The notes: generated by a model not told the origin, from the sequence alone. 64,000 nt of DNA from Candidatus Bathyarchaeia archaeon (GCA_050012255.1 JBEKHN010000003.1:1-64000); one strand, 5' to 3'. Counted from the stretch's first letter, positions 13,644-36,041 are shown. Translations and numbers: made by a program.

Positions 13644-14396
13644 TCAAGTCCTGCCGCGTCGTATGCCTTCGATGATTTCCGAAACCTTGTGCTTGATGCC
13701 TGTCTCCTCAACGAGGTTGCCTGTGACGATTATGTCTGCGCCCGCTGACGCCGCGGTTAATGCCTGCTCTCGGGATCTTATGCCACCCCCAACAACCAGG
13801 GGCACATCAACGTAATGCTTCACAGCGCGGATCATCTCAGAAGGAACTGGGTTCTTGGCACCCGACCCACCTTCCAGGTAGATGAAGCGCATGCCCAAGT
13901 ACTGGCCTGCTAAGGCGTGGGCCGCCGCTAGCTCAGGCTTGTCGTACGGGATTGGAATTGCCCTGCCCACAACGCCCGCTGTGCCGCCCTCACCAACGAT
14001 TACGTAGCCAAGCGGGAGAGGTTCCAAACCGTACCTTTTTACAAGGGGAGCCCCCAAGATCTGAGCCCCCATCAGAAAGTACGGGTCCACCGAGTTCAGA
14101 AGCGACATAAACCATATCGCATCTGCGTAACGGCTTATACCAGTAACATTGTTGGGGAAAAGGATTATCGGAATCTTCACAGCACGCTTGACCATCTTCA
14201 CAACATCATCCAGATGAGCCGCAGACACGAACGTCGACCCACCGATCATAATGGCCGAAGTCTCGCATGCTCTCGCTTTACCCGCGATCTTCGAAGCCTG
14301 GGGCGGAGTCACCCTTTCAGGGTCTATGAGCGTTATGTGAATGGAACCCTCGACCGCGATCTTTTCAAGAAGATACTTCTCAACGTTACCTTCCAT
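13644..14396 (-). CDS. Geranylgeranylglyceryl phosphate synthase
   Basis: HITLIDP, IMIGGS, ILFP, IYLEGGSGA, VGGGIR. Confidence 0.93.
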   Translation of the reverse strand: MEGNVEKYLLEKIAVEGSIHITLIDPERVTPPQASKIAGKARACETSAIMIGGSTFVSAAHLDDVVKMVKRAVKIPIILFPNNVTGISRYADAIWFMSLLNSVDPYFLMGAQILGAPLVKRYGLEPLPLGYVIVGEGGTAGVVGRAIPIPYDKPELAAAHALAGQYLGMRFIYLEGGSGAKNPVPSEMIRAVKHYVDVPLVVGGGIRSREQALTAASAGADIIVTGNLVEETGIKHKVSEIIEGIRRGRT

Positions 14397-14410: not shown

Positions 14411-14674
14411 TCAGGCACCCTTGATCACAGCAGAGGGCCTTCGAGACTGGCTATACGTCTTATCGGTGAACATGCAGTAAACGTCAACCTCAGCCTGAGC
14501 AGGCTTAACCGGGAACCGCTCCTTGAGACCACAGCTACCGCATCCAACGACTGCGCATCCTTCCTCACGAAGAATCTCAACCCTCACCGTTTCCTTCCCA
14601 CACCTAGGACAAGGGAACAGTCTTGGAAGATGCTTCCTAGGGATGCGTACAACCTTTTTCCTTCTTCTACCCAT
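14411..14674 (-). CDS. elf1: Transcription elongation factor Elf1
   Basis: MGRRRKK...[11 protein letters not shown]...CGSCG...VDVYC. Confidence 0.9.
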
Positions 14675-14770
14675 ATCCGGGTCCTTCTCCGCTGGGAACG
14701 TCAGACACCCATATTTATGTTTGTCCTTAAATAGTTGCCGACAACCATACACCCATGGGAGCGCACCCCT

Positions 14771-15613
14771 TTGAAGTTGACGCCTACAGTTCTTGACCTA
14801 AACCTGCCAGAAACGGAGAACAGGATCCAACGGTTCATCAAGGACTACGTGGAGAACACGGGCGCAAAGGGCATGGTCTTGGGAGTATCCGGTGGAATAG
14901 ACAGCTGTACCGTAGCAGCGATATCGGCTAGAGCCATAGGCGGAGACAAGGTCCTAGGACTCATGCTACCCGAAAAAGAAACGCGAAGCTCCAAAGACAT
15001 CGAACATGCGAAACTCGTTGCTAAGAAATTCCATTTCAAAACAGAAACAATCGACATCACAGCTCCGCTAGAGGCGTTCTACAGTTCAATGAGGCTATAC
15101 GACCCTTCAGACAAACTGAGCAAGGGCAACATAAAGGCGCGGACACGCATGGTCTACTTATACTACTACGCGAACAGGCTGAGCATGCTCGTCTGCGGAA
15201 GCTCAGACAAATCAGAAACCATGATGGGCTACTTCACGAAATGGGGAGATGTTGCGGCTGACATATCGCCGATAATGGATTTGTACAAGACCCAAGTTCG
15301 AAAAGTAGCCCAGCACATAGGCATTCCAAGAGAAGTCGTCGAAAAACCCTCTTCCCCTGGTCTCTGGCCAAACCAGCTGGCCGAGGACGAACTGGGCATG
15401 AAGTATGAACAGCTTGACCTTATCCTATACGGACTGGAACATTTCCTGAAGCCAGAGGAAATAGCCGATAAGCTGCAGATTGAAAAAGGCACAGTCATCA
15501 GAATAGAGCGCAGGTGGCTTTCAGCAGAACACAAGAGGCGCATGTTACTGACAGCAAAGCTTGAATATCGAACGGTAGGTACTGACTTCAGACTTCCACG
15601 CGGCCCCTGTTAG
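14771..15613 (+). CDS. nadE: NAD+ synthetase (synthetase domain only)
   Basis: [31 protein letters not shown]; TTG start inferred. Confidence 0.95.
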
Positions 15614-15635
15614 ACTGAATGGAGGAGGATAGTTA

Positions 15636-16469
15636 ATGAAGGAGAGATTTATGGTTGCTCTAGCGCAGATTAGCTGCAAACCGGGAGACAAGGAACAGAA
15701 TCTGAAGAAGATCGAAACAGCCGTCACCAGAGCCGAGGAGAAAGGAGCAGACCTCGTGATATTGCCAGAACTCTCGCTCACGGGCTACGTTGTGAGAGAC
15801 CAGATCTATGAATTGGCTGAGGAGATCCCTGGACCATCGACGAGAATCATAGAGAGAATTGCTAGGGATGCAGGTATACATGTCGTTTTTGGTATGCCTG
15901 AAAAGAGCAAAATGGCGCAGGCTACCCTTCACAACACCGCAGTGCTTGTGGGCCCCAAGGGCTTAATTGGCAAGTACCGCAAGATGTACCTCCCAACTCA
16001 CAGCGTCTTTGAAGAAAAAAGATACTTTCGTCCAGGCTATGAGACCTCTGTCTTAGACACTGACCTTGGAAAGATAGGTTTGCTCATATGCTACGACATC
16101 TACTTCCCAGAAGTGACTCGGCTCACACGGCTCGAAGGAGCCCAACTGGTCGTGTGCATTTCAGCTTCACCCGCGGTTCGTCGGTCATTCTTTGAAATAC
16201 TCACGGCTGCACGTGCAGTCGAAAACACGACTTTTCTGGCCTTTGTGAACCTCATAGGAGTCGAGGACGGCTTGCAGTTCTGGGGCGGCAGCAGGCTAGT
16301 GGGACCTAACGGGAGAGTCCTCGCTCAAGCCAAGTACGACGAGGAAGATTTTGTGATAAGTGAGGTGGACTACGCCGACATAAGACCCCTTGAAGCCTTC
16401 GTCCCTACGTTGAAAGATTTACGTCCAGAATTGTTTGACAAGTTAAGGATGCGCGCGGAAGAATTGTAG
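15636..16469 (+). CDS. Carbon-nitrogen hydrolase (nitrilase family), possible glutaminase partner of NadE
   Basis: LPEL, YRKMYL, ICYD catalytic E-K-C triad; directly downstream of nadE. Confidence 0.88.
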   Translation: MKERFMVALAQISCKPGDKEQNLKKIETAVTRAEEKGADLVILPELSLTGYVVRDQIYELAEEIPGPSTRIIERIARDAGIHVVFGMPEKSKMAQATLHNTAVLVGPKGLIGKYRKMYLPTHSVFEEKRYFRPGYETSVLDTDLGKIGLLICYDIYFPEVTRLTRLEGAQLVVCISASPAVRRSFFEILTAARAVENTTFLAFVNLIGVEDGLQFWGGSRLVGPNGRVLAQAKYDEEDFVISEVDYADIRPLEAFVPTLKDLRPELFDKLRMRAEEL

Positions 16470-16539
16470 ATCAAAGAAAAAGTTAACCGCCAAAATCCGT
16501 TTACCTATTCTTCGAAAGTCGCCAAACAACCAAGCAGAC

Positions 16540-16940
16540 ATTGTCACAAGCTATCATCTTGGCACTTCATCAGAAATCACAACCATGTCACGTTTAAATG
16601 TCATCCTGTCAAGGGAATGGCGCCATTGAGAGGAAGAACTCCAGCAACCGAGTTGTTTGGAAATTGATGCTCATCACACGTGACTCACGTGTGACGGCAG
16701 GCGTCACACCACGCACCGCATGTTTGAAGCTATTATCCTTTAACAAAGAAATGCTGATTGTTTTGCGACTAGTAGAAACGGGCCCATACACAACGAACTC
16801 AAAATCGGCAAGCAATGCTACACTAGCCGGCTTCGCGAAACCGTCAAAGAAGAGAAGATACTTTCGCCCTCCCATTTGTCACAAGCACGTCACAGTTCCG
16901 GCCACAGCCAAGCTTCTCACCCTGATATGTTCTTCACGCT
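16540..16940. promoter_or_regulatory. TCAC/GTGA motif cluster including a perfect 21-bp palindrome
   Basis: About 12 TCAC/GTGA in 400 bp; TCACACGTGA-C-TCACGTGTGA at 16674-16694; TTGTCACAAGC twice. Confidence 0.6.
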
Positions 16941-17287
16941 AGAACCTCCTAATACTCAGCGCTCCTTCTCTTGCTCCTTCCCACCTAGCCCCAAGATGTC
17001 TTTAGTGAACGAAAATCAGCCTCCTCGTAGGGGCAGGTTAATTCGTCTTGGCATTCCTTGGACCAAAGCAAGAAAACGGCACAGTACACAAAGCTTCGGT
17101 CGTTTGAGGCTCCCGACTTGGTCAAAACCAGAAACCGCTCGCTTTCCCTAATCATTTGCCGATTCCCTGGCATGCACGTCTTCTGCCTGGAGAAGTCAAA
17201 GCGCGCCACACCGGAATTCGATACTTTTAAGAGCTGGGCCCGTATACAACAACGTATTCATTCACATCATCTCAGGAGCGACGAGAC

Positions 17288-17767
17288 TTGAAGCTAAGAG
17301 ATAGCGTCCGATCAATGCTAGCAAGCTCAATTAACGACCCGATTGCCAAAATCATGGCTGACAACAGCCATTTAACAACAACCCAGCTCGAAACGCTCCT
17401 CATCGACATATTATCCGACAATATCGCAGGCAAATCGCTGAAGTACGACGAAAAGGCCCGATTGAGACTAACCAAGGCCAAAATCAGCCGTGGAGCGTTC
17501 AACCGAACCCTGAAGCAAGCCAGGCAAAATGTCACAAAATCCATCTACACGGTAATACTGCTAGGGTACTTGGGACTCTTTGAGACCACAACTCTTGACC
17601 CATACCTTGAGGTCGCAAACCAACTGCACACGTATCTGGATGCGTACAAGAACGCGGTCAAGGAAGGCACAAGCATGAGTGAACGACTAAAGATCATGGG
17701 TTTGCTCCGCCAACAGCTCGAAACAAGCCTGGAAGAGCTCTCTAGCCGTTCGACGAGACGGATGTGA
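17288..17767 (+). CDS. Conserved hypothetical protein with HTH-like segment
   Basis: LTTTQLETL...YDEKARLR...ISRGAFNRTLKQARQNV helix-turn-helix pattern followed by helical C-terminus. Confidence 0.7.
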   Translation: MKLRDSVRSMLASSINDPIAKIMADNSHLTTTQLETLLIDILSDNIAGKSLKYDEKARLRLTKAKISRGAFNRTLKQARQNVTKSIYTVILLGYLGLFETTTLDPYLEVANQLHTYLDAYKNAVKEGTSMSERLKIMGLLRQQLETSLEELSSRSTRRM

Positions 17768-18056
17768 CGTCACAAATCACGCCCCGCAATACGGCACTTA
17801 TGCCCCGCAACCGTAGCTTTTCGCAGAAGACAGATTCACGTCGCAAATCTGGATAAGCACCCAAAGCGGCCCTCTTTCTAGAGAGCATTCGTAAGCCTCC
17901 AAACATGTCGATTTAACTTGAAAGCGTGACGTGTGATATCATGCCTGCCCGTCACCATGGTACGCATCATAAGTCTTAAATGCCACATGGGTGAGATGTG
18001 ATGCGTGATGCAACATGCTCGAGTCACGCATAATCACGTTTGAATCACAGGTGAAT
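17763..18056. promoter_or_regulatory. TCAC/GTGA motif cluster
   Basis: 14 TCAC/GTGA in about 295 bp; palindrome TGTGACGTCACA at 17763-17774 overlaps the upstream stop codon; GTGA at 17991/17998/18005. Confidence 0.65.
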
Positions 18057-18061
18057 TTCTA

Positions 18062-18775
18062 TTGGATTATCTGCTGTTTGCCCTCGTGAGTTGTCTGCTC
18101 ACAACCACCGCAGTTTCGGCGTCGGAATATTACCGTAGGTTGCGTCAAGCCAAAAGGGAATATGAAGAAGCACGAGGGGCGGTTGAGGACATTGTTTTGA
18201 GCTTCAATAGGCAGTTTAGGCGCGGAGGCGAGAAGCTGGAGACACTTGCATACAAGGTTGCGGCTGTGGATTCGAAAAACGACAGAATACTGGGCATGAT
18301 GGGAGATATACAAAAGAGGATAAGCACCGCGGAGGCAAAGGTCGGTGCCGACTCTGAAGGTAGAGAGAAGTTGGCAGTTCGGCTAGCTGAAGTTGAAAAC
18401 AAAACACGTGACATAGTAGCATCACAAGAAGCAGTCACAGCAAAGATTGTAAACTTGGAACAGCAGGCTAGGGAATTCTCAGCCGCCCCTGAAGCCAGCC
18501 TCGAAGCGGCGATACCAATAAGGAGAGAGAAGGCGTTAGCACAGTTGACTGCAACAGAGGTTGCTGTGTTGGAGATGCTAGCATCAGAGGGGCCGAAGAC
18601 CGCGCCACAGATAAAGGAAAAAGTGAGACTTAGTAGAGAACACACGGCAAGGTTGATGAAGAAGCTCTACGAACAAGGATACTTGGAGAGGGAGACCGGC
18701 AAGATCCCGTTTAAGTACAGCGCCAAGAAGGAGATGGAGAAAATTCTGAGGAAACCAGAGGATCAAGCTGCCTAG
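18062..18775 (+). CDS. Membrane-anchored coiled-coil protein with C-terminal MarR-type winged helix
   Basis: Hydrophobic N-terminus (YLLFALVSCLLTTTAVSA), heptad-rich middle, LTATEVAVLEML...LSREHTARLMKKLYEQGYLER. Confidence 0.8.
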   Translation: MDYLLFALVSCLLTTTAVSASEYYRRLRQAKREYEEARGAVEDIVLSFNRQFRRGGEKLETLAYKVAAVDSKNDRILGMMGDIQKRISTAEAKVGADSEGREKLAVRLAEVENKTRDIVASQEAVTAKIVNLEQQAREFSAAPEASLEAAIPIRREKALAQLTATEVAVLEMLASEGPKTAPQIKEKVRLSREHTARLMKKLYEQGYLERETGKIPFKYSAKKEMEKILRKPEDQAA

Positions 18776-18814
18776 TTTGCCTGCAGGAATGAAAACTCGC
18801 GGCCGCGAGAAAGT

Positions 18815-19255
18815 TCACTGTTTCATTGCAATGTCCGTTGCTTTCGCGGTGACCTGCGGCATACTTGTTGCCGCTTTGTACTTCAAGCTGTTGGATGGCC
18901 CCGCTTTTAAAAGGAGCCTCTTTCCTGCCATCCTTGCGAGGTACGTTGCCACAGTACTCAGCCCTATTGGCTCTCTAAACTCCTGCTCGAACACAGTTTG
19001 TACCTCTCTGGAGCAGAACCAAACCACAGGGAAGTGTTTTTGAACTATTGCTCTAACCTTGTCATACTTTGACGGTTCTCTAGCCAAGGCGGGATTGAAA
19101 TCCGGGTTTCCTCCACCCCCAGGCATCCCACCAAGGAGTTCCACCAAGTCGAGCAGCCGCACCGCCTTATCGCGTGTGACCTGCCCTTCAAAGCTTATCG
19201 AGTAACGATTGCCCTCGCTGTCGAAAAGTTCGACGCGCATCTTTCTTGCCGGCAT
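18815..19255 (-). CDS. Two-domain hypothetical protein with C-terminal winged helix
   Basis: N-terminal beta-beta-alpha domain, Gly-rich linker, FCSREVQTVFE...IGLSTVATYLARM wHTH. Confidence 0.75.
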   Translation of the reverse strand: MPARKMRVELFDSEGNRYSISFEGQVTRDKAVRLLDLVELLGGMPGGGGNPDFNPALAREPSKYDKVRAIVQKHFPVVWFCSREVQTVFEQEFREPIGLSTVATYLARMAGKRLLLKAGPSNSLKYKAATSMPQVTAKATDIAMKQ

Positions 19256-19279
19256 TGGCATTGTACACCTAGCAGCTGT

Positions 19280-19581
19280 GTTCACAATTTCACAGTTCAC
19301 AAGCTATAATTGTTACGGTGAACAGTTTGCCCCAAAAGGGAAAGAAAAGGCCTCTAAACCGATAAAGCAGCCATATTTCCAGCCTTACTGACGTTACGCG
19401 GATAACAGGTTTCCAGAAGCTAAAAATGAGAATAGAGTCGGTACGAAACGCATTTTCCAGTGGAAGAGCAGGGGCGAGCTATTCACAGAAAAGAAGCATA
19501 GGGAACTCAATTGGAGGAAATAGGAGGAGTTGGAAACGACATTGATAAATAAACTTCACAAGGACTTCACGAAAAGTGAAC
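19280..19581. promoter_or_regulatory. TTCAC(A)/GTGAAC motif cluster
   Basis: TTCAC at 19281, 19289, 19296, 19482, 19555, 19566; GTGAAC at 19318, 19576. Confidence 0.55.
19455..19474 (+). promoter_or_regulatory. Origin recognition box (ORB)
   Basis: TTCCAGTGGAAGAGCAGGGG: ORB dyad plus G-string. Confidence 0.88.
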
Positions 19582-19714
19582 AGAAAGTTGGGCAAAAGCG
19601 CGCGCCGCAACGGGCTGGAGGTTTCAGAGGATCCGCGATTAGAGGGGCATGACGCAAGAAAACGGATCTGATTGATAATCCGCATCATAAATAGTATGTA
19701 GGAGAGAAGTCGCA

Positions 19715-19734
19715 CCCCTGCATTTCCATTGGAA
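19715..19734 (-). promoter_or_regulatory. Origin recognition box (ORB), inverted
   Basis: Minus strand TTCCAATGGAAATGCAGGGG. Confidence 0.88.
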
Positions 19735-19895
19735 AGGGTGCAGGCTCCATATTGCCTATCACTAGGCCTGAATTGTTTTTTAGTAAAGGTCTAAAAGTCT
19801 TAGCGGGAATTAATATAACCTTAATGTCTGATTACCTAAAGGAGTACAATTTGTTCTAAACGTAACTAACATTTTCCTGCTTAAAGACTAAATGT

Positions 19896-19915
19896 TTCCA
19901 CCAGAAGCTTTGGGG
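19896..19915 (+). promoter_or_regulatory. Degenerate ORB
   Basis: TTCCACCAGAAGCTTTGGGG; a further mini-ORB TTCCACAGGAA lies at 20032-20042. Confidence 0.6.
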
Positions 19916-20079
19916 TGTGCCTGTATATTTTGAAGAGTATTAGCGCGCGCGCTATTTGCTGTTAAAGATGTGCTTCTTCTTTAGGATTATTGTGTTTGGT
20001 ATTTAGATTTCTGTACGGTAGGGTTTATGCTTTCCACAGGAAGAACGCTTGCTACCACTGGACCGTGCGAGTTGATGAA

Positions 20080-21330
20080 ATGAGTAACGCTGATATTCTT
20101 GATGAACTCTTCGAGAACTTCGCAAGCAACGCCACAGTCTTTAAGGATCGAGAGGTGCTGCGACACGATTATCTTCCAGACAGGCTGCCTCACCGTGAAG
20201 GGCAGATCAGGCAATTGGGAGAAATTGTTGCGCCCTTGCTTAAAGGTGCAAGAAGCTCGAACATTTTTATCTATGGAAACACAGGGACCGGGAAAACCGC
20301 TGTGGTCAAATATGTTCTGACTCGTCTTGAGTTTAAGGCTAAAGAATTTAACGCGCCTGTCAAGTTCTGCTACGTCAACTGCAGGCTAGCTGGATCCGAG
20401 TACAGGGTCTTTGCAAGTATGTGCCAGAGTTTAGGTGTCCAAGTGCCATTCACAGGATTATCCGTTGGTGAAGTCTATGATAGGTTCACTGCGGGTTTGG
20501 ACCTTTCGGGCATGATTTTTTTGGTGGTCTTGGATGAAGCCGACGCGTTGACAAAGATGCGCGGGGACACTCTTCTGTACGAGTTAACTAGAATGAACGA
20601 GGTTCTGAGGCATAGCAAAATAGCACTTGTTGGGATATCTAACGACCTGCGATTCAAAGAGTTCCTGGATCCGCGTGTCCTAAGCTCACTAAGCCAGGAG
20701 GAGATTGTTTTTAGGCCCTACGACGCAGGTGAGTTGAAAAACATACTCGCTGAACGCGCGCAGGCAGCCTTTACTGAGAAAGCATTGTCCGATGCCGCAC
20801 TTGGTCTATGTGCTGCTCTGGCTGCAGCAGAGCATGGGGATGCTCGCCGAGCTTTAGACCTTTTGCGTGTTGCCGGCGAGGTAGCTGAACGAAAAGGGTT
20901 AACCGTAGTGTCTGAAGAGCATGTTCGCGAGGCTGAGAAGCACATTGAGCACGACCGCGTTGTTGAAGCTTTGAGCAACCTGACATTGCATTCGAAGCTT
21001 GTGACATTGAGCATCTATCACTTGGGCAAGAGAGATGCTCGGGGTGCCATTACAGGTGAGATCTCTGAGGTCTACGATGAGCTCAGCGGGGAGTTGGGAG
21101 TTGCGGCGCTGACGCAGCGGCGTTTGAGCACGTTGATAAATGAGCTGGACGCGATGGGGCTGTTGAACGCGAGGGTCGTTAGTATGGGAAGGTACGGGCG
21201 GACGAAGAAGATACGGCTTGAGATCGCGCGTAGCCTTATTCGAGGCGTGTTTGCTGAGGATAGTAGGCTTGGCCGTCTGGTTGATTATGAAGTACGGTGC
21301 ATTTCGAAGCGGGGCGATGGCAGAAGCTAA
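20080..21330 (+). CDS. cdc6: Orc1/Cdc6 replication initiator
   Basis: DYLPDRLPHRE, GNTGTGKT Walker A, VVLDEAD Walker B, GDARRALDLLR, C-terminal wHTH with GRYGRT. Confidence 0.97.
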   Translation: MSNADILDELFENFASNATVFKDREVLRHDYLPDRLPHREGQIRQLGEIVAPLLKGARSSNIFIYGNTGTGKTAVVKYVLTRLEFKAKEFNAPVKFCYVNCRLAGSEYRVFASMCQSLGVQVPFTGLSVGEVYDRFTAGLDLSGMIFLVVLDEADALTKMRGDTLLYELTRMNEVLRHSKIALVGISNDLRFKEFLDPRVLSSLSQEEIVFRPYDAGELKNILAERAQAAFTEKALSDAALGLCAALAAAEHGDARRALDLLRVAGEVAERKGLTVVSEEHVREAEKHIEHDRVVEALSNLTLHSKLVTLSIYHLGKRDARGAITGEISEVYDELSGELGVAALTQRRLSTLINELDAMGLLNARVVSMGRYGRTKKIRLEIARSLIRGVFAEDSRLGRLVDYEVRCISKRGDGRS

Positions 21331-21382: not shown

Positions 21383-22948
21383 CTAGTCGAACGGAATGAC
21401 GGTGACCTCTAGCGTTTGAAGGTTTACCACGGGAACCTTTGCAGGTGTCGGAACAAAGCCGTTCCTACGCATGTAGCCGGTCTGCCTTTGCCAACAGCCT
21501 GAGTTTACGATCAACACCCCACGATAGTTGCCGTATTCGAGCGCGTGCACGTGGCCAGCGTGAAAGATGTCTGGGACGCGGTCGATAACGAGAAAGTCTT
21601 TGCTCTCCGGCGACAGAGGTGTCTTGCCGCCGTACAGCGGTGCTAAGTGTCGCGTCTGGAGCAGCAGCTGCATGGCTTTTTCGGGGTGGCTGTGGCTCAT
21701 GCCTGGGACGGTGGAGATTACGTCGTCGAGGCTGCGGCCGTGGTACATAAGCACTTCTACACCGTGGAGGCTTAGGGTGCAGGGGCTGCCTAGGGATTGG
21801 ACCCTTCTTGATTCTTGAAGTGTTTCTAGGAAGGAGCTGGATATTGCTGGCTGCGGTAGGGCTTTTCGGGGGGCATCATGGTTTCCGGGCGTGATTATGA
21901 CCTCCACGTAGTCGGGGATTTGCTCAATGTACTTTGAGGCAAACCTGTACTGCTTGTTCACGTCTCTTATCACGAGTTCTTTTGCTTGGTTGGGGTAGAC
22001 GCCGATTCCGTCGACGATGTCCCCAGCGATTAGCACGTATTTGACGTGGCCTGCTATGTCCTTCATCCTGGCGTCGCCGTACTTGCCGTTGAGCCAGAGC
22101 GTGAAGCGGTTTAGCGCTTCTTTCGTGAACTGTGTGCTGCCCACGTGCATGTCTGATGTGAGCACTGCGTAGACTGGTGCCGTTGCTTTGTGTTGGAGTC
22201 TCTGGGCAACGTCTGGTAGGATTATGTCTTCGGCAACGAGCAGGTTGCTTCTGGTCTTGACGACGCTGAGGCAGACGACTTGGTCGAGCAGGAGCGTTCG
22301 CGCCTTCTTCTGGAGGTCTTGGGGAGCGTTCTGTGTTACGAGGACGATGGCGTGTGCCTTGAGGTCCTCAACGGTCAGCACCGTTTTCTGTTTGGACTCT
22401 CTCTTCTCTGTGACCATGGCTATTATCTTGAGTCGCGCGTTTGATGGGGCCTTCACAGCGTCCAAGACCGAGGCCGCGCTCTTGACGTCCATCCTTTGTC
22501 TCAGCAGCTTTTCTAGCTGCTTGAACCTGTCTTGAAAGTAGCCCAGGTAGTCTTCGATCGTCCCGGCTGAGTCTATTTTTGAGCCTGGGTCTTCGATCAC
22601 TTTCATGTCGGCTTCAACGTCTTTCGAGTATGGGTGGAAAGGCGTCTTGGCCTCAGTTATCTGCGGGGCTTGCACCTCCGGAGTTTGTTGGAGGCGTTCT
22701 TCTGATGGCTGGGCAACGTTTCCCTCTGCTCGTTCTGGCGTTTTGAGTAACTCTTCCAGGAAGCACCGTTCTATGAAGAAGGGTTTTTCTTCAAGGTTTT
22801 CGATCTGCTGGATTGCTTTGGCCATGATTTTCGCTGGGTCCTCGGTTGTGGCTACCATGCTCAGGAATTCGAAGGCTTCTATGTTCAGTTGATAACCGGC
22901 AGCAATAGTGAGTTCCACGGCCTTCTGAAGCTTCTCAGCCTCACTCAT
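21383..22948 (-). CDS. polB: DNA polymerase D small subunit DP1 (exonuclease)
   Basis: SDMHVGS, AGDIVDG, PGNHD, YHGRS, GHVH phosphoesterase motifs. Confidence 0.96.
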   Translation of the reverse strand: MSEAEKLQKAVELTIAAGYQLNIEAFEFLSMVATTEDPAKIMAKAIQQIENLEEKPFFIERCFLEELLKTPERAEGNVAQPSEERLQQTPEVQAPQITEAKTPFHPYSKDVEADMKVIEDPGSKIDSAGTIEDYLGYFQDRFKQLEKLLRQRMDVKSAASVLDAVKAPSNARLKIIAMVTEKRESKQKTVLTVEDLKAHAIVLVTQNAPQDLQKKARTLLLDQVVCLSVVKTRSNLLVAEDIILPDVAQRLQHKATAPVYAVLTSDMHVGSTQFTKEALNRFTLWLNGKYGDARMKDIAGHVKYVLIAGDIVDGIGVYPNQAKELVIRDVNKQYRFASKYIEQIPDYVEVIITPGNHDAPRKALPQPAISSSFLETLQESRRVQSLGSPCTLSLHGVEVLMYHGRSLDDVISTVPGMSHSHPEKAMQLLLQTRHLAPLYGGKTPLSPESKDFLVIDRVPDIFHAGHVHALEYGNYRGVLIVNSGCWQRQTGYMRRNGFVPTPAKVPVVNLQTLEVTVIPFD

Positions 22949-29818: not shown

Positions 29819-30622
29819 TTGACTGAAATCGTGTGCGATGAAAAGGTAGTCATATCGGCTGAACCAGCACTTGCGAACGAGAGAATAGTGGAAAGGAAGA
29901 CCATCGTCTACGAGACTCGTGTTGACCCGACCGTGATAAAGGTGGCCGGGGAGAAACTCAAGGATCAGCTGTTCACTAGATTTGGATTCTTGAAGCCTAA
30001 ACCAGAAGAGATTCAATTCGTTTCCATCGACAAGTACTACGAACCCTATACGATGATCAATGGAAAATACGCGATTGATTACTACCGCAAGTGCGTTTAC
30101 TCAGTTAAAGTGGACAAGGAAGTCTTAGAAGTTGTTCTATTGAATCAAAAGTTTGAGCCCGAACAATCGACGGATTCCTCTGCCAAAGACCATAATGTGA
30201 TTAGGCTCGAAGGAGAAGAGAGATTAAGGAATGAGGTCAAAGCCTCCCTTATCCTAGACCGGTTTGGACGAGACGTCACGCTTGAAAAACTCCCATCCGC
30301 TCCTTCAGAGAGAAATCCTAAGAAAATACTAGCACAATACAGCGTGGAAGAAATCGCTTCGAACGCAGATTTAGACTTCATAAGATCAAAAATAGTCAAC
30401 CGCCCAAGGGACATAAATCGGCTTGTCAATGAACTCTTTGAAGTTGACGAGCGAGTCGTAATCTACACTCCAAGATTCAGAGTCCTCTACAGAAACGCAA
30501 AAACAGGCGAGCAAAAAACTGTGGAATTTGACGGTGTCACAGCTGAAAGAATCCAACAGAGCAAGAGCACAAGTTCACATGACGCTCTTCCTGTTCCTCC
30601 TCCGCCTCCTCCACCGACATAA
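29819..30622 (+). CDS. Hypothetical protein with C-terminal poly-proline
   Basis: Long ORF with ordinary composition; ends VPPPPPPPT; TTG start chosen downstream of the tRNA scar. Confidence 0.7.
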   Translation: MTEIVCDEKVVISAEPALANERIVERKTIVYETRVDPTVIKVAGEKLKDQLFTRFGFLKPKPEEIQFVSIDKYYEPYTMINGKYAIDYYRKCVYSVKVDKEVLEVVLLNQKFEPEQSTDSSAKDHNVIRLEGEERLRNEVKASLILDRFGRDVTLEKLPSAPSERNPKKILAQYSVEEIASNADLDFIRSKIVNRPRDINRLVNELFEVDERVVIYTPRFRVLYRNAKTGEQKTVEFDGVTAERIQQSKSTSSHDALPVPPPPPPPT

Positions 30623-30712
30623 ACGCGGCCTTGTCCATTTCTTGAGACTAGGTAAGCAAAGAAAAAGATGAGAACGTCGCCGGCCGCAATCAGCAGCGGC
30701 AATGTTCGTATA

Positions 30713-30865
30713 TCATTTTTCTTTATGAGCGCATTCCATGCAGATAGCGATTATCTTCACATTCTGAAGCGATTGCGACAAGGACGTTAAACCTTTTGCC
30801 ACGACCGTCACGTAACCCAAGGGTTTCCCACACTTTTGGCATCCTACTGGCTTGGCATCACTCAT
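30713..30865 (-). CDS. Small zinc-finger protein
   Basis: CQKCG...CMEC, 50 aa. Confidence 0.6.
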   Translation of the reverse strand: MSDAKPVGCQKCGKPLGYVTVVAKGLTSLSQSLQNVKIIAICMECAHKEK

Positions 30866-30974
30866 ATCCTTCACTACGATACAATTCTCTACCCATCCCT
30901 TTAACTGGTTTCTGGCCTGCTTTTTGCATTTCCGTTTTTGGGCCCTATTCCTTATGCACACAGAGCCAACACTG

Positions 30975-31484
30975 TCATCTGAGAAATTCTCGAACCACTT
31001 CTCTTGAAACGCAAAAATAGGGTTTCATCCACTCATATTTCCTGAGAACTTCCAAATGCTGTAAGAGAATGTTGCACTCGCCCTTTCTCACAAGGAGTAT
31101 CTCTCGATCAGACGCATACTTCTTCTTGAGTCTGCCCGCAGTAGAGGTTGCATGTACAACGATGAAAGGAGGGATCTTGAGATGTTCTCTTGTGGCCTTT
31201 GAAATCAGGGTCACATCAAACGTGGCAATAATTCGACGGACATTCACTTCAATACCCAGTTCTTCAACAGCTTCCCTTTCTGCCGCTTCTTCAATCGACT
31301 CATTCTGTTCTGTTCCTCCGCCAAGCAAAAACCATAAACCACTTCGAGGATCTGTCACAACTGCAAATCTGTCACCAAAATCCACCAGCAGGGTCACTCG
31401 AGCTGACCTGTTTGACCATGGTTTCGTCCATACAGAAATGCCTGCTGATTCCATCTCAATGTTCAGTTCACGGGTTGACATCAT
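30975..31484 (-). CDS. NUDIX hydrolase
   Basis: GGTEQNESIEEAAEREAVEELG Nudix box. Confidence 0.88.
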   Translation of the reverse strand: MMSTRELNIEMESAGISVWTKPWSNRSARVTLLVDFGDRFAVVTDPRSGLWFLLGGGTEQNESIEEAAEREAVEELGIEVNVRRIIATFDVTLISKATREHLKIPPFIVVHATSTAGRLKKKYASDREILLVRKGECNILLQHLEVLRKYEWMKPYFCVSREVVREFLR

Positions 31485-31765
31485 CTCTGTACCAGTTAAT
31501 GAGTAAGAAGTTCCTATTTGATAACTTGTTAGGCTGTATAATTACCATCATCAAGCAAGAGCATAAGTGGCGTCCTGAACTGTGTTGTTGGTAGTCCGGA
31601 GTATGTTCTAATGTCGGTTTGGATTGTCGGAGCTAAAACTTCATTATACCCTGTTATGGGAAAATGTCAGAGTTGAGTTTAAAATGATTCTAAAGTTGCC
31701 TGTAGAATATTGTTTGGCTTAGTTTAGATCTGGCATGTTATCTTTGAGCTTGTTGACAACTGGGG

Positions 31766-32614
31766 TCAAGTCGAAGTTGAGATCGTCCAACCTAGATTCT
31801 TAAGCATGTTTTCCAGTATCTTCAGACTCTTAAGAGCAACTTCCCTAGGGCGAACTTCGAGGGTGAAGTGAACATCTCTAGGCAACAACAGTTTTAGATA
31901 GCGACAGAAATCGATTTTTCCAACTCCAAGGACATCATGTGAATATTTCCCTGGTTTTTGATCGTGAAGATGGCATTCTCTCACCTTATCCAAGTTGGCT
32001 ATCAAGAAATCCTCTATTTCACGGATCGGCTTCCCTGCATCGGTATGAGTTTTGGGTATGTCCCAGCATAAGGAGAGACCTGTAGTAGGAAGGAGTTCTT
32101 TCAAGACGTCCATGGCAATTCCGCTTAGCCGATCGTTTTCAACGCAGATTAGGACTTTTCCACGAGAGAATTCAACTAGTTTAACTAGACTCTCTGTTAC
32201 AGCCTTCTTGTACAGTGACCAGTGATCCCCTAAGTAGGTACCTTTTCTCCCTGCAAAAACGAAATCGTATGGAGGGTCTATGTGAACTGTGAATCTTTCG
32301 GCTCCAACGTCCTGAGCAAAGTCCAAGCATAGTTTCATTCGGTCGAGGACAGCTTTTCTTACATCTGGATAAAGAGTTCCAAGATTCAGGTAGTCACTTG
32401 GTCCATGGAATGAGATGGACACGCCTTTTGACATGGCGAAGTCTCGAATATGGCGCCTTTCCGATTCGCTAAAACGCTCTGGAAAGAACCGCGGGATCAT
32501 AAGATCAGGAACGATGTAGCCAAAGCCATGGTGACTTGCAAAATCTATTGCATCGCAAATAGTAACATCGTACACCACATGATAACCGAAACGCTTCCAA
32601 GTTACTTCTTTCAT
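31766..32614 (-). CDS. Sugar phosphate isomerase/epimerase (AP endonuclease 2 TIM barrel) family
   Basis: SFHGP, TVH, CVEN, WDIPK, CHLHD, LEV. Confidence 0.82.
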   Translation of the reverse strand: MKEVTWKRFGYHVVYDVTICDAIDFASHHGFGYIVPDLMIPRFFPERFSESERRHIRDFAMSKGVSISFHGPSDYLNLGTLYPDVRKAVLDRMKLCLDFAQDVGAERFTVHIDPPYDFVFAGRKGTYLGDHWSLYKKAVTESLVKLVEFSRGKVLICVENDRLSGIAMDVLKELLPTTGLSLCWDIPKTHTDAGKPIREIEDFLIANLDKVRECHLHDQKPGKYSHDVLGVGKIDFCRYLKLLLPRDVHFTLEVRPREVALKSLKILENMLKNLGWTISTST

Positions 32615-32853
32615 ACCGCATCAACCATAAATGATTCCATTCAAATCGCCCGAGAAGGACGACAGAAAATCAGTTGTTCAAGAAACTATAAAAATGTCGC
32701 ACAAGAAATCCGGTTGAGACTTTCGTTTCTGGCAGCTAGGTATAGCCTCTCGAACGAGAGAGCGAGCGCGCGCGCAAATTCGGCGTCAAAATTATTTGTC
32801 CGAAGATTCTTTAATGCTTCTTCCATTTGAGCTTCCAACTTCACACAGCACAG

Positions 32854-33318
32854 TCAGCATTGTATGACCAGTCGGCAGCCTTCATTTAGTTTTTCGATGC
32901 TGCTCCTGAACCCCAGCAGTTTGTAGGCATGAGGATAGATGATAGAGCATATGTGATCGCAGAAGTAGTCAGAGGGCAAACCTTCACGGTGTTGATTACT
33001 CATCAATCTGATTGGGCATTTCTCCACGATGCCGACGTATCCCTCAACGTCCAATTTCTCGACTTTTCTTCCTACCCATGCCTTTTCTATTTTAGCCTCA
33101 AATTCAAGAAAGTCTTGTTTAGATTTTGCGACTAGGTTTCTCCTGTCTGCTGACGCGCCAGTTTCTGCCCAGAATCTTGCAAACCTCTCAAGTTCATTTA
33201 TGCCATAGTTTTTCGAGAGATAATGGGTGATCAATAGGTAGGCTCCAAACTCAAAAGACTTTCTTAGTTTGAGCTCCTCTTCGGGTGAGACTGTCATTTC
33301 TTTGTTCATTTGTGACAC
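32854..33318 (-). CDS. Hypothetical protein (V4R/ATC-hydrolase-like Cys pattern)
   Basis: KCPIR...FCDHIC...GCRLVI. Confidence 0.55.
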   Translation of the reverse strand: MSQMNKEMTVSPEEELKLRKSFEFGAYLLITHYLSKNYGINELERFARFWAETGASADRRNLVAKSKQDFLEFEAKIEKAWVGRKVEKLDVEGYVGIVEKCPIRLMSNQHREGLPSDYFCDHICSIIYPHAYKLLGFRSSIEKLNEGCRLVIQC

Positions 33319-33395
33319 AAGAGAATAATATTAAAAGGTGTATCAAAAGATTTTGTGATGGTAGCGGTTTGACTATCGAAGTTCGAAGGGATCCT

Positions 33396-33749: not shown

Positions 33750-33781
33750 ACCGAGCCAACCACTAGGATAGGCGACTGTAA

Positions 33782-34333: not shown

Positions 34334-34339
34334 GAGCCG

Positions 34340-34666: not shown

Positions 34667-34735
34667 ACTCACTTTTTTGGAGATTGGAATTTATGAAAAT
34701 CCGAGAACCAAAGGTTCTCTCGCGAGCCGTCCTAT

Positions 34736-36015: not shown

Positions 36016-36041
36016 AAGCGAACGTAGGAGTCAGGGCCTGT

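What the first reader, a model, noticed from the sequence alone, without database searches (positions are those of the whole stretch)
16540..19581. Candidate origin-tethering/segregation system: HTH + membrane-anchored coiled-coil wHTH + wHTH inside TCAC arrays next to oriC
Seen: three uncharacterised genes lie directly left of the ORBs. 17288-17767 is HTH-like; 18062-18775 has an N-terminal TM helix, a long coiled coil and a C-terminal MarR wHTH; 18815-19255 has a small N-domain and a wHTH. About 1.4 kb of surrounding non-coding DNA is enriched in TCAC-core motifs, two of which overlap stop codons (17765, 18815). No ParA/SegA ATPase is present in the window. Established: partition loci (parABS, SegAB, AspA) sit near origins or replicons and use clustered sites around their own genes. 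Inference: a centromere-like array bound by the soluble HTH proteins and anchored to the membrane by the TM-coil-wHTH protein, that is an ATPase-free or trans-ATPase origin positioning or licensing module.
Basis: partly seen in the sequence, partly recalled or inferred. Interest (0 to 1): 0.85.

Follow-up and report, generated by a model that had tools for sequence, protein, structure and literature searches.

The report
Origin-side trio of DNA-binding proteins
Next to the replication origin of this peat archaeon lie three small, unnamed DNA-binding genes, each with its own conserved DNA motif; one of the proteins is anchored in the membrane, and the same arrangement is found as far away as the ammonia-oxidising Nitrosopumilus group, so it can be tested there.

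Summary
The genes and the motif enrichment are real. The 294-bp spacer 17768-18061 is the densest TCAC/GTGA window of the whole 2.35-Mb genome: 13 per 300 bp against a mean of 2.2.

The finding needs three corrections:
- The 818-bp "non-coding" stretch is a decayed aminotransferase gene.
- "TCAC-core" lumps two motifs. RTCACR/TGTGAY arrays bracket gene 1 and cover the promoter of gene 2. TTCAC/GTGAA palindromes sit at the gene-3 promoter and inside oriC. A third palindrome marks the gene-1 promoter.
- The three genes are not one obligate machine, because they occur separately across 151 Bathyarchaeia.

P3 (beta-beta-alpha domain plus winged helix) never occurs without this Cdc6 ortholog: 88 of 88 genomes, 68 of them adjacent and divergent. 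P2 (membrane helix, coiled coil, MarR/TrmB-type winged helix) travels with the TGTGAY arrays, also where Cdc6 and the ORBs are gone.

Most likely these are three autoregulated DNA binders. P2 probably holds this origin-proximal locus at the membrane, and P3 probably binds beside an ORB. All binding assignments are inferred; nothing here shows binding. The layout recurs in a second class whose proteins NCBI names as Nitrosopumilus.

The parts
16544..16707 (.). Array U: 8 RTCACR/TGTGAY-type sites just after the CN-hydrolase stop, including TCACACGTGACTCACGTGTGA; 4 looser sites lie at 16879-16937
   Evidence: Sites listed. 9 sites per 300 bp puts it among the 18 densest windows of the genome. At least 8 sites in the first 300 nt at the same position in 10 of 20 loci of the order.
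16609..16875 (-). 88-aa ORF, a fragment of a decayed class I/II aminotransferase gene; the whole gap 16470-17287 is its relic
   Evidence: phmmer hits to the 390-400-aa ORFs in the same gap of 7 more distant relatives, besides the window's own ORF and its L030 counterpart. Pfam Aminotran_1_2 E 4e-70 for L036:7857-9029.
17225..17257 (+). P1 promoter: TATA-like TTTTAAGA (17225-17232) and palindrome GTATACAACAACGTAT (17242-17257), about 30 nt before the TTG start
   Evidence: Palindrome found by a strict pattern in 18 of 21 loci of the order and 14 of 20 loci of other orders. Variants are visible in the remaining loci. A perfect TATACA-N4-TGTATA stands in the f37 locus L075.
17288..17767 (+). P1, 159 aa: sigma70-region-4/LuxR/Tfx-like HTH (about residues 17-100) plus a C-terminal helical hairpin (97-159)
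   Evidence: AF2 pLDDT 91.9. VIA matches to EsrB (Z 7.4), sigL region 4 (Z 6.9) and EnfR 8hno (Z 6.8, rmsd 1.3, 29% identity). No Pfam family at E<=1. Found in 126 of 151 Bathyarchaeia and 65 of 121 Thermoproteota genomes.
17763..17780 (.). Module A: TGTGACGTCACAAATCAC, overlapping the P1 stop codon
   Evidence: GTGA-N2-TCAC lies within -15..+80 of the P1 stop in 19 of 21 loci of the order. In other orders it is present in 12 of 13 loci with P2 and 1 of 7 without. The stop TGA is part of the motif in 20 of the 32 positives.
17925..17942 (.). Module B: CGTGACGTGTGATATCAT (GTGA-N3-GTGA-N2-TCA), just upstream of the P2 TATA box
   Evidence: Invariant columns in alignment A4 of 18 spacers.
17967..17981 (+). 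P2 promoter: conserved TCATAAGTCTTAAAT (BRE/TATA-like)
   Evidence: ACCATAAnnTTTAAAT is conserved in A4. The promoter assignment is inferred from the archaeal TATA consensus (recalled); there are no TSS data.
17991..18054 (.). Module C (17991-18014): three GTGA units 7 bp apart, followed by GCAAC. Module D (18024-18054): TCAC-N6-TCAC-N7-TCAC-N2-GTGA. Both lie between the TATA box and the P2 start.
   Evidence: RNAalifold finds 12 pairs, all between invariant motif bases, with 0 compensatory changes.
18062..18775 (+). P2, 237 aa: N-terminal membrane helix (3-21), conserved juxtamembrane helix (22-52), variable coiled coil (to about 150), C-terminal MarR/TrmB-type winged helix (161-222) with invariant SREHTxR
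   Evidence: Found in 108 of 151 Bathyarchaeia. The f37 relative is named 'winged helix DNA-binding protein' of Nitrosopumilus spp..
18815..19255 (-). P3, 146 aa: beta-beta-alpha N-domain (4-41), disordered linker (44-58), winged helix (63-128)
   Evidence: AF2 pLDDT 74. Fur DNA-binding domain Z 10.8. Found in 88 of 151 Bathyarchaeia, always together with the Cdc6 ortholog.
19281..19323 (.). P3 promoter: GTTCAC-N17-GTGAAC palindrome (19295-19323) around AGCTATAAT, plus two further TTCAC units (19281, 19289) between the TATA box and the start
   Evidence: One of 4 such palindromes in the genome. The TTCAC...GTGAA flank is kept in genomes without P2.
19482..19580 (.). P3-type sites inside oriC: TTCACA (19482) about 10 nt after the G-string of ORB1, TTCAC (19555), and TTCACGAAAAGTGAA (19566-19580)
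   Evidence: 8 TTCAC/GTGAA per 400 bp at 19201-19650 ties the genome maximum (mean 1.1, sd 1.05).
19410..19915 (.). oriC: mini-ORB at 19410, ORBs at 19455-19474(+), 19715-19734(-) and 19896-19915(+), with an AT-rich stretch between the last two
   Evidence: (inverted pair I2).
20080..21330 (+). Orc1/Cdc6 initiator
   Evidence: Pfam Cdc6_lid E 4e-24 and Cdc6_C E 6e-24.

Best explanation
The locus holds three separately inherited small DNA-binding proteins, each paired with its own cis-element. They lie in an old, conserved neighbourhood: GGGPS - Zn-ribbon - NadE - P1 - P2 - P3 - oriC - Cdc6 - PolD small subunit.

(1) P1 is a dimeric sigma70-r4/Tfx-like HTH protein. I infer that it represses itself through the palindrome GTATACA-N4-5-YGTAT at its transcription start.

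(2) P2 is fixed in the membrane by one N-terminal helix (N-out, C-in, because the basic residues follow the helix). It dimerises through a coiled coil that ends in two loosely tethered winged helices. I infer that these bind the 5-bp TGTGA/TCACA unit in whatever arrangement it occurs: 7-bp tandems or 10-bp palindromes. The units form two arrays, 16544-16707 and 17763-18054, which bracket P1 and cover the P2 TATA box and transcription start. Binding would therefore shut off P2's own promoter. Because the protein cannot leave the membrane and no other such cluster exists in the genome, binding would also keep this one locus at the membrane. The locus lies 1.4-2.9 kb from the ORBs.

(3) P3 dimerises through its beta-beta-alpha domain. 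I infer that it binds GTTCAC/GTGAAC half-sites that flank its own TATA box and that lie beside ORB1 inside oriC. That would make it an origin-bound accessory factor and/or a regulator of the divergent P3/cdc6 region.

SHOWN: the gene models, folds, motif statistics, conservation and phyletic patterns. INFERRED: who binds what, the promoter positions, the membrane topology, and any effect on replication or segregation.
For: Motif uniqueness and conservation.

Three motif classes. In the P1-P2 spacers (239 sites) the base before TCAC is A or G in 86% and T in 8%. In the P3-Cdc6 intergenic regions (175 sites) it is T in 76%. The background is 37% T. The P1 palindrome is class-wide.

P2 goes with TGTGAY. 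Module A is present in 12 of 13 loci of other orders that have P2 and in 1 of 7 that lack it. The P2 recognition helix SREHTxR is invariant in 21 of 21 orthologs. It is also kept in f37, f44 and f49, where TGTGAY arrays or module-A/C-like sites are present as well.

Sites occur outside promoters. Module A is kept between convergent genes in 5 of the 6 loci where hypF separates P1 from P2 (L065 carries only a variant), and P2's own upstream 330 nt there holds only 0-7 sites. Array U persists with no adjacent gene in 10 of 20 loci.

P3 goes with the origin. 88 of 88 genomes with P3 have the Cdc6 ortholog; in 68 the two genes are adjacent and divergent, with a median gap of 745 bp. TTCAC...GTGAA at the P3 promoter and next to the ORB G-string is kept in genomes without P2. 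In f37 the motif has changed to GTTAAC but still sits in the P3-Cdc6 intergenic region: 4 of 4, 3 of 3 and 1 of 3 of all sites in three 20-kb loci.

Architecture of the proteins.
Against: No binding, expression or localisation data exist. No RNA run holds the locus.

The P2/motif co-loss amounts to only about 2 independent events on a Cdc6 tree, with one exception: L070 has the motif but no P2 was found. Loss of the regulated gene would also remove its operators whoever binds them.

P3 and Cdc6 are neighbours, so a single deletion can remove both; their co-loss is weak evidence of shared function. 11 genomes have the Cdc6 ortholog without P3.

P1-P2 and their arrays persist where the Cdc6 ortholog and the ORBs are gone: f24, and 0 strict ORB matches in 6 of 6 such loci. 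They also persist in 5 of 5 f44/f49 loci with no Cdc6 within 10 kb. P2's function therefore does not need this origin.

The whole neighbourhood, NadE and GGGPS included, is syntenic, so linkage to oriC may simply be inherited gene order.

Modules B-D sit exactly where an ordinary repressor would bind. TM and coiled coil come from crude measures. The structural Z-scores for P1 (6.7-7.4) lie in the range the tool calls common for helical proteins.
Confidence: 0.42

Rival explanations
1. Plain transcription factors with no role at the origin. The three proteins only control their own genes (in relatives also the NurA/HerA-like operon after P3 and the small gene P0). The arrays are operators. The P2 membrane anchor is a switch: the protein is held away from DNA, or released by proteolysis on a signal. 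The position next to oriC is inherited gene order.
For: Modules B, C and D bracket the conserved TATA box and the start region of P2. The P3 palindrome flanks its TATA box. The P1 palindrome lies at its start. The whole 10-gene neighbourhood is syntenic. P1-P2 persist without the Cdc6 ortholog or ORBs. In f3/f7/f9 array U precedes a gene. P3 heads an operon with NurA/HerA-like genes in 9 of 20 loci.
Against: Module A is kept between convergent genes, far from any promoter, in 5 loci, while P2's own promoter there has few sites. Array U persists without a downstream gene in 10 loci. P3-type sites lie 230-330 bp upstream of P3, next to an ORB, in two classes. No second cluster exists elsewhere in the genome, so there is no regulon. 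A DNA binder that sits in the membrane places its target at the membrane whatever its purpose.
Confidence: 0.3
2. The TGTGAY arrays are bound by a factor encoded elsewhere (or by P1). P2 is only the regulated gene.
For: The motif/P2 co-occurrence is equally expected if the arrays are operators of P2. P1 is always upstream and is itself an HTH protein. The motif half-site TGTGA is, from memory, the CRP half-site, so other winged-helix proteins could read it.
Against: P1 is present in the 6 loci that lack both P2 and module A. P1 travels with a different palindrome. Module A is kept when it is 2.5-7 kb from the P2 promoter. The P2 recognition helix is invariant while the motif is conserved across three classes.
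Confidence: 0.12
3. One reading: one centromere-like array bound by the soluble proteins P1 and P3 and hooked to the membrane by P2, forming an ATPase-free or trans-ATPase partition or licensing machine.
For: Three DNA binders, arrays and an anchor protein lie side by side at oriC. No ParA-like gene is on the contig. Relatives carry a HerA-like ATPase gene in the P3 operon.
Against: The three genes have separable distributions. Each has its own motif class. The HerA/NurA-like pair is missing from this genome: only a 27%-identical paralog lies on C14.
Confidence: 0.06
4. The arrays encode a structured RNA: a 5' leader of P2, or a small RNA made from the TTTAAAT at 16591.
For: Modules C and D can pair as GUGAU/AUCAC stems. 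A TATA-like TTTAAAT sits inside array U.
Against: Rfam gives 0 matches at E<=1. There are 12 predicted pairs with 0 compensatory changes and a covariation term of -0.1. The same units occur as direct repeats and upstream of the TATA box, where they would not be transcribed. The 10-bp palindrome is too short to fold.
Confidence: 0.03

Closest known systems
[quoted passage not shown]
   Same: The build logic is the same: a sequence-specific DNA-binding domain, a coiled coil and a membrane-binding element in one small protein, with sites near the origin. RicO bridges origin-proximal DNA and the membrane.
   Different: The domain order is reversed. RicO has an N-terminal DNA-binding domain and a C-terminal amphipathic helix; P2 has an N-terminal transmembrane helix and a C-terminal winged helix. 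RicO has nine sites spread over about 700 kb; P2-type sites form two arrays within 1.5 kb, partly on P2's own promoter. No homology was tested. RicO is bacterial, P2 archaeal. The function of P2 is untested.
RacA of Bacillus subtilis (PMC4914108; abstract read)
   Same: A winged helix joined by a disordered stretch to a coiled coil. It binds centromere-like repeats near the origin and anchors the chromosome.
   Different: RacA reaches the pole through DivIVA, not through a membrane helix of its own. It binds GC-rich sites and also coats DNA non-specifically. It is specific to sporulation.
EnfR / Tfx family (PMC10570040; abstract and two Results sections read; PDB 8hno)
   Same: The P1 HTH superposes on the EnfR sigma70-r4-type HTH (Z 6.8, rmsd 1.3 A, 52 residues, 29% identity). 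EnfR is a dimeric archaeal repressor that binds a pseudo-palindrome at a promoter.
   Different: P1 has a helical hairpin where EnfR has its alpha+beta 'note-head' domain. P1 has no Pfam or NCBIfam match. The DNA motif is different.
UBP, the ucm-binding protein of Sulfolobus origins (PMC12141716; abstract, one Results section and passages read)
   Same: A precedent for a small, sequence-specific, non-Orc protein that binds a conserved motif inside archaeal origins next to ORBs. This is the role proposed for P3.
   Different: UBP is a saddle-shaped dimer that binds hundreds of sites and contacts MCM. P3 is a winged-helix protein whose motif is concentrated at one locus. No relationship between them is known.
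MarR/TrmB/Lrs14-type winged-helix regulators
   Same: The P2 winged helix passes the Pfam cut-offs for HTH_27, MarR and TrmB. The best PDB sequence match is a MarR protein (E 7e-4).
   Different: P2 has no room for the MarR dimerisation helices: only 15 residues follow the wing. Dimerisation would come from the coiled coil instead. The membrane anchor has no counterpart in these families.
ParABS / SegAB / AspA partition loci (recalled; PMC5120986 seen only in a search listing)
   Same: Clustered short repeats lie beside the genes of their presumed binding proteins, near an origin.
   Different: There is no partner ATPase on the contig. The proteins are not ParB-, SegB- or AspA-like by any search done here. 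The genes are inherited separately.

Membership tests
MarR family (P2) | Winged helix-turn-helix matching the family profile | tested here: met
   PF01047 at 31.6 bits (cut-off 24.6), PF13463 at 32.3 (22.2) and PF01978 at 30.8 (25.6), all on residues 161-222.
MarR family (P2) | N- and C-terminal helices around the winged helix that form the dimer | tested here: not met
   The winged helix ends at about residue 222 of 237. Upstream lies a coiled coil, and the profile is matched only over positions 1-50 of 59. P2 was not folded.
Tfx / sigma70 region 4 HTH (P1) | Region-4-type helix-turn-helix fold | tested here: inconclusive
   VIA Z 6.7-7.4 to EsrB, sigL r4, EnfR and CnrH over residues 17-100. 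The tool warns that Z under 8 can be a common arrangement. Foldseek gives 0 hits at E<=0.001. No Pfam match.
Tfx / EnfR (P1) | C-terminal alpha+beta (TFX_C, 'note-head') domain | tested here: not met
   The model has only helices at 104-125 and 130-153. The EnfR description is in PMC10570040.
BlaI/MecI, Penicillinase_R (P3) | Profile match above the cut-off, and a C-terminal dimerisation domain | tested here: not met
   16.7 bits against a cut-off of 22.6. The model ends in a disordered tail after the wing. The fold is a generic winged helix.
Cdt1/WhiP-type origin factor (P3) | Tandem winged-helix domains (recalled definition) | tested here: not met
   The model shows one winged helix (63-128) plus a beta-beta-alpha domain.
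ParABS/SegAB-type partition locus | Walker-type ParA/SegA ATPase gene beside the DNA-binding gene | tested here: not met
   PF13614: 5 matches in the genome, none on contig C3. PF01656 was not searched.
ParABS/SegAB-type partition locus | Repeat array next to the genes | tested here: met
Origin-membrane tether (RacA/RicO kind; a functional class, not a sequence family) | DNA-binding domain, coiled coil and membrane or pole anchor in one protein | tested here: met
   The anchor and the coil rest on crude measures.
Origin-membrane tether (RacA/RicO kind) | The protein binds origin-proximal sites and localises them to the membrane | not testable with these tools
   Needs EMSA or ChIP and microscopy.
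Origin-membrane tether (RacA/RicO kind) | The gene depends on the neighbouring origin | tested here: not met
   P2 is in 30 of 33 f24 genomes, against 1 of 33 for the Cdc6 ortholog. 5 of 5 f44/f49 loci have no Cdc6 within 10 kb.
Archaeal oriC | ORB repeats with a G-string flanking an AT-rich stretch beside orc1/cdc6 | tested here: met
   Three strict ORB matches and the inverted pair I2. Cdc6 domains.
CRP-like reading of TGTGA (P2 recognition helix) | R-E-x-x-x-R recognition helix (recalled from CRP) and a profile match | tested here: inconclusive
   HTH_Crp_2 E 0.028, 14.8 bits against a cut-off of 27, on residues 189-214. No CRP chain among 19 PDB sequence hits. R192, E193 and R197 are invariant.

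The most novel reading that the evidence does not exclude
P2 is an archaeal DNA-membrane tether for the origin-proximal chromosome, the first of its kind in archaea. It would be a membrane-inserted coiled-coil dimer whose two winged helices clamp TGTGAY arrays about 1.5-3 kb from oriC. P3 is a new origin-bound accessory factor that sits beside the Orc1/Cdc6-bound ORB. Both would be conserved from Bathyarchaeia to ammonia-oxidising Nitrososphaeria, so together they would position and tune the origin without a ParA-type motor.
Probability: 0.22. Interest if true: 0.85.

Novelty: new variant of a known kind. Interest (0 to 1): 0.68.

Why it matters
How archaea without SegAB or ParAB place and separate their origins is an open question. 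Only a few non-Orc proteins are known to act at archaeal origins; UBP in Sulfolobus is one.

This work gives three concrete, cheap-to-test protein/motif pairs:
- P1 with GTATACA-N4-5-YGTAT.
- P2 with TGTGAY arrays.
- P3 with GTTCAC palindromes (GTTAAC in the Nitrosopumilus-type family).

All three lie in a neighbourhood conserved across at least two classes of Thermoproteota, including lineages whose proteins NCBI names as Nitrosopumilus maritimus and N. adriaticus. Nitrosopumilus maritimus is, from memory, cultured. ChIP, localisation and in-vitro origin assays are therefore feasible there.

Even on the ordinary reading the result is useful. It defines two protein families with no Pfam match (P1 and P3). 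It also shows a membrane-inserted winged-helix architecture that none of the literature searches here turned up for archaea.

Tried and rejected
- Rfam on 15500-21000 at E<=1: 0 matches. ARAGORN on the window: 0 tRNAs.
- Foldseek against the PDB: P1 has 0 hits at E<=0.001 (best E 2.9). P3 has 0 hits at E<=0.001 (best E 2.3e-3, generic winged helices).
- PDB sequence search with the P1 profile: nothing below E 0.38.
- Complex prediction with Cdc6 (A5) and P3 (A6): 'no answer', score 0.00. This is not evidence either way.
- The look-up of sequencing runs: 24 DNA holders and no RNA holder listed.
- ESM Atlas for P3: only Bathyarchaeota 'hypothetical protein' clusters.
- The genome-contig scan with the P2 profile found 529 relatives, but the 80 kept are all Bathyarchaeia, so it gave no names for distant lineages.
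- A regulon elsewhere in the genome: the other dense TCAC windows lie in coding repeats without the motif grammar, and no other cluster has more than 2 composite elements.
- HerA/NurA-like genes as a trans-ATPase in this genome: only a 27%/25%-identical pair on C14.
- The small gene P0 of relatives: no family, and not found in this genome.
- CRP chains did not appear among the PDB sequence hits of the P2 winged helix. The CRP likeness therefore stays a recalled lead.
- RNA structure for modules C-D: no covariation.
- Literature searches found no paper on these proteins or on a membrane-inserted winged-helix protein at an archaeal origin. These searches cover only the held library. Supplements were not opened.
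- A larger count of module A in further genomes without P2 was considered and dropped, because kinship leaves only about 2 independent events.
- Not tested: whether the GTTCAC at the P3 stop codon is conserved.

Full report
LAYOUT. The window is contig C3:1-64000 of a 2.35-Mb, 98.5%-complete genome. The closest named relatives of its proteins are Candidatus Bathyarchaeia MAGs. The genes around the finding are:
- GGGPS (13644-14396, -)
- Zn-ribbon protein (14411-14752, -)
- NadE (14735-15613, +)
- CN hydrolase (15636-16469, +)
- an 818-bp gap
- P1 (17288-17767, +)
- a 294-bp spacer
- P2 (18062-18775, +)
- P3 (18815-19255, -)
- a 780-bp ORB region
- Orc1/Cdc6 (20080-21330, +)
- PolD small subunit (21383-22948, -)
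- a PhoU-like gene.
Three strict ORB matches stand at 19455(+), 19715(-) and 19896(+).

IS THE ENRICHMENT REAL? Yes. TCAC/GTGA reaches 13 per 300 bp at 17751-18100. The window mean is 2.3 (sd 1.6) and the genome mean is 2.2 (sd 1.5, maximum 13). I also counted composite elements (GTGA-N2-TCAC, GTGA-N3-GTGA, TCAC-N3-TCAC, TCACGTGA). The genome holds 108 of them in 97 clusters: 89 singles, 7 pairs, and one cluster of five, which is this spacer. The other dense windows lie in coding repeats and lack this grammar.

THE UPSTREAM 'NON-CODING' DNA. The gap 16470-17287 is a gene relic. In relatives with a 1.3-1.7-kb gap, a gene of about 390 aa lies there, divergent from P1. It is a class I/II aminotransferase (Pfam E 4e-70). 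The window's 88-aa ORF 16609-16875(-) is a fragment of it. Directly after the CN-hydrolase stop there is nevertheless a second array, array U (16544-16707, 8 sites). It recurs at the same place with at least 8 sites per 300 nt in 10 of 20 loci of the order, with a shared core TCACAYGTGA ... GTGA-N3-GTGA-N2-TCAC. In three families it precedes a 110-aa gene of no known family. That gene was not found in this genome.

ANATOMY OF THE P1-P2 SPACER. An alignment of 18 spacers of the order shows four conserved modules separated by unconserved DNA:
- Module A: TGTGACRTCACAAATCACA, overlapping the P1 stop.
- Module B: TGTGAYNTGTGAYRTCAT, just before an invariant ACCATAAnnTTTAAAT. I read that sequence as BRE/TATA (recalled consensus; no TSS data).
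- Module C: TGTGATGTGTGATGCAAC, where transcription should start.
- Module D: TCAC-N6-TCAC-N7-TCACAGG, before the P2 start codon.
The density is 23-50 sites per kb in 19 of 19 relatives, against 5-10 per kb in their 20-kb loci.

TWO, IN FACT THREE, MOTIFS. Flanking bases separate the sites into classes.
- In the spacers (239 sites, 20 genomes) the base before TCAC is A (56%) or G (30%) and T in only 8%, with A at -3 and A/G at +1. The unit is RTCACR, which read on the other strand is TGTGAY.
- In the P3-Cdc6 intergenic regions (175 sites) the base before TCAC is T in 76%, giving TTCAC/GTGAA. The background is 37% T.
- In the window the P3-type sites form GTTCAC-N17-GTGAAC around the P3 TATA-like AGCTATAAT (19295-19323). 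Two more units lie before the start codon, and further sites lie inside oriC: TTCACA about 10 nt beyond the G-string of ORB1, and TTCACGAAAAGTGAA at 19566-19580. 19201-19650 ties the genome maximum for this 5-mer (8 per 400 bp; mean 1.1, sd 1.05).
- The P1 promoter has neither motif. Instead it carries GTATACA-N4-5-YGTAT. A strict pattern finds this in 18 of 21 loci of the order and 14 of 20 loci of other orders, and variants are visible in the rest.

THE PROTEINS.
- P1. It has 3403 relatives at E<=0.001, all 'hypothetical' among those listed, and 231 cluster representatives. It has no Pfam or NCBIfam family. It folds with pLDDT 91.9 into seven helices. Foldseek finds nothing at E<=0.001. The exhaustive aligner matches residues 17-100 to LuxR/sigma70-region-4-type HTH domains: EsrB Z 7.4, sigL r4 Z 6.9, CnrH Z 6.7, and the archaeal Tfx-family repressor EnfR Z 6.8 (rmsd 1.3 A, 29% identity over 52 residues). 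Residues 97-159 match helical hairpins. These Z values lie in the range the tool calls unremarkable for helical models. The conserved LTxxQLETLLI ... VSRGAFNRTLxQARxN block fits that HTH type.
- P2. It has an N-terminal hydrophobic 19-mer (Kyte-Doolittle 1.7, residues 3-21) with acidic residues before it and basic residues after it. A conserved helix EYYRxLRxxxxEYEKAKxAVxDIVLSFNRQL follows. Next comes a variable stretch (45-145) that matches chemoreceptor and tropomyosin coiled coils (E 5e-8 to 1e-5). The protein ends in a winged helix (161-222) that passes three Pfam cut-offs. R192, E193, H194, T195 and R197 are invariant in 21 of 21 orthologs.
- P3. It has 2501 relatives. It folds at pLDDT 74 into a beta-beta-alpha domain (4-41), a disordered linker and a winged helix (63-128). 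The best match is the Fur DNA-binding domain, Z 10.8.

DISTRIBUTION.
- Within the order, P1, P2 and P3 are found in 36, 34 and 35 of 41 genomes. 19 of 20 fetched 20-kb loci keep the order NadE/CN hydrolase - P1 - P2 - P3 - oriC - Cdc6 - PolD; the 20th is cut by a contig end. In 9 loci a NurA-like and a HerA-like gene follow P3 in the same direction.
- Across 151 Bathyarchaeia genomes, P1 is found in 126, P2 in 108, P3 in 88 and the Cdc6 ortholog (E<=1e-60) in 99.
- The genes separate. P2 was not found in f14, f20, f22, f23, f25, f26 and f27. P3 and the Cdc6 ortholog are nearly absent from f24 (1 of 33 each), f21, f18 and f33, where P1 and P2 remain beside PolD. In five such genomes only a 31-33%-identical Cdc6 paralog exists elsewhere, and no P3 was found at E<=0.01.
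- Every genome with P3 has the Cdc6 ortholog (88 of 88). In 68 the two are adjacent and divergent (median gap 745 bp), in 12 they share a contig 1.7-18 kb apart, in 7 they are on different contigs, and 1 is a fragment. 11 genomes have Cdc6 without P3.
- Beyond the class, the P1 profile matches 65 of 121 Thermoproteota genomes. In f37 (GC 0.32-0.39), 3 of 4 fetched loci read GGGPS - P1 - P2 - P3 - Cdc6 - PolD, and the 4th ends at a contig end after P3. f41, f47, f48 and f54 keep P1/P3/Cdc6. 5 of 5 f44/f49 loci have only an overlapping P1-P2 pair.
- The f37 P2-like protein (TM, short coil, and a winged helix with DRSREHTSRLMKK) is 100% identical to a 'Nitrosopumilus sp.' protein and 67% identical to proteins that NCBI names 'winged helix DNA-binding protein' of Nitrosopumilus maritimus and N. 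adriaticus.
- In f37 the P1-P2 region again holds 21-27 TCAC/GTGA per kb against 5.6-5.9 in the locus. The P1 stop again lies in GTGA (L075). The P3-Cdc6 intergenic region concentrates GTTAAC instead of GTTCAC: 4 of 4, 3 of 3 and 1 of 3 of all sites in the 20-kb loci.
- In f44/f49, module-A-like or module-C-like sites lie upstream of the P1-P2 operon.

WHO BINDS WHAT (INFERENCE).
- Module A (GTGA-N2-TCAC near the P1 stop) is present in 19 of 21 loci of the order. The two misses are a frameshifted P1, where my script read the wrong stop, and one variant. In other orders it is present in 12 of 13 loci that have P2 but in only 1 of 7 without P2. In five of those genomes P2 was not found even at E<=0.1.
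- P1 and P3 are present in six of the seven loci without P2, so they do not maintain this motif.
- The P3-type palindrome and the ORB-adjacent TTCAC...GTGAA persist in the genomes without P2.
- The P1 palindrome follows P1 everywhere.
- Hence: P1 goes with GTATAC palindrome, P2 with TGTGAY, and P3 with GTTCAC.
- Caveats: on a Cdc6 tree the loss of P2 needs only 2 changes. Loss of a regulated gene would also erase its operators, whoever binds them.
- Two observations speak for binding by P2 itself, and for a role beyond promoter control. Module A is kept between convergent genes in 5 of the 6 loci where hypF separates P1 from P2, while P2's own upstream region there holds 0-7 sites. Array U persists with no gene behind it.

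MECHANISM. Two winged helices on flexible tails of a membrane-anchored coiled coil could read 5-bp TGTGA units in tandem (7-bp period) or as a 10-bp palindrome. These spacings are too tight for a rigid MarR-type dimer. Occupying modules B-D would block TBP/TFB and RNA polymerase at the P2 promoter, giving negative autoregulation. Because P2 cannot leave the membrane, the bound locus, which lies 1.4-2.9 kb from the ORBs, would sit at the membrane. Whether cells use this to position the origin is open. P1-P2 and their arrays persist in lineages that lost this Cdc6, P3 and the ORBs (0 strict ORB matches in 6 of 6 such loci), and this argues against an obligate link to the origin. P3, with sites on its own TATA box and beside an ORB in two classes despite a changed motif, is the better candidate for a true origin factor. 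However, simple co-deletion of neighbouring genes would also explain its distribution.

COMPARISON WITH KNOWN SYSTEMS. The nearest functional analogues of P2 are the bacterial origin anchors RicO and RacA, which combine a DNA-binding domain, a coiled coil and an anchor. No homology was tested or is claimed. The P2 sites are one compact locus rather than sites scattered over hundreds of kb. P1 resembles Tfx/EnfR only in its HTH. P3 is a generic winged helix with a new N-domain. UBP of Sulfolobus is a precedent for a non-Orc protein at archaeal origins. ParABS/SegAB membership fails on the missing ATPase.

LIMITS. There are no RNA, binding or localisation data. The TM and coiled-coil calls are crude. 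The complex prediction of Cdc6 with P3 gave no answer. Genomes are samples of their groups and kin are not independent.

Noticed in passing
window 16470-17287: A decayed class I/II aminotransferase gene. It is intact and divergent from P1 in relatives such as L036:7857-9029. In the window only an 88-aa ORF fragment (16609-16875, -) is left.
   Followed up: yes
L033:7354-9937 (also L035 and L040-L046): In 9 of 20 loci of the order, a gene of about 340 aa with no family (NurA-like only by a weak match) and a HerA-like ATPase gene of about 520 aa (DUF87, E 3e-11) follow P3 in the same direction, next to oriC. This genome has only a 27%/25%-identical pair on C14.
   Followed up: partly
L042:12691-13026, L044:7589-7933, L045:7499-7825, L041:12921-13253: A conserved 108-114-aa gene of no known family lies right after the CN hydrolase, with a TGTGAY array at its 5' end. 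It was not found in the window's genome.
   Followed up: partly
L029:10644-11058 (genome G001, same genus, single contig): P1 is matched in two overlapping pieces in different frames (residues 1-105 and 93-159). This is a frameshift or a sequencing error in an otherwise intact locus.
   Followed up: no
L052:7455-9791, L055:4168-6492, L056, L059, L064, L065: In six loci of other orders, a gene of about 775 aa beginning with an acylphosphatase-like GxVQGVGFRPF motif (HypF-like from memory; not run through Pfam) is inserted between P1 and P2. Module A stays at the P1 end.
   Followed up: partly
window 18813-18818: A P3-type half-site GTTCAC overlaps the P3 stop codon. Conservation was not checked.
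   Followed up: no
window 17288 and relatives: P1 starts with TTG in the window and at the aligned position in most loci of the order.
   Followed up: no
window 30000-45000: GC drops to 0.41-0.45 from about 0.50 on either side. This may be a foreign island.
   Followed up: no
L060 and L061 (genome G095): One genome (82% complete, 3% contamination) carries two diverged copies of the P1 ... P3-Cdc6-PolD neighbourhood on two contigs. This may be two strains in one bin.
   Followed up: no
L069 (genome G123, f34): The P3-P2-P1 block is inverted relative to Cdc6, so P1 faces Cdc6. ORB-like sites lie on both sides of the block (8417; 10383 and 10559).
   Followed up: no
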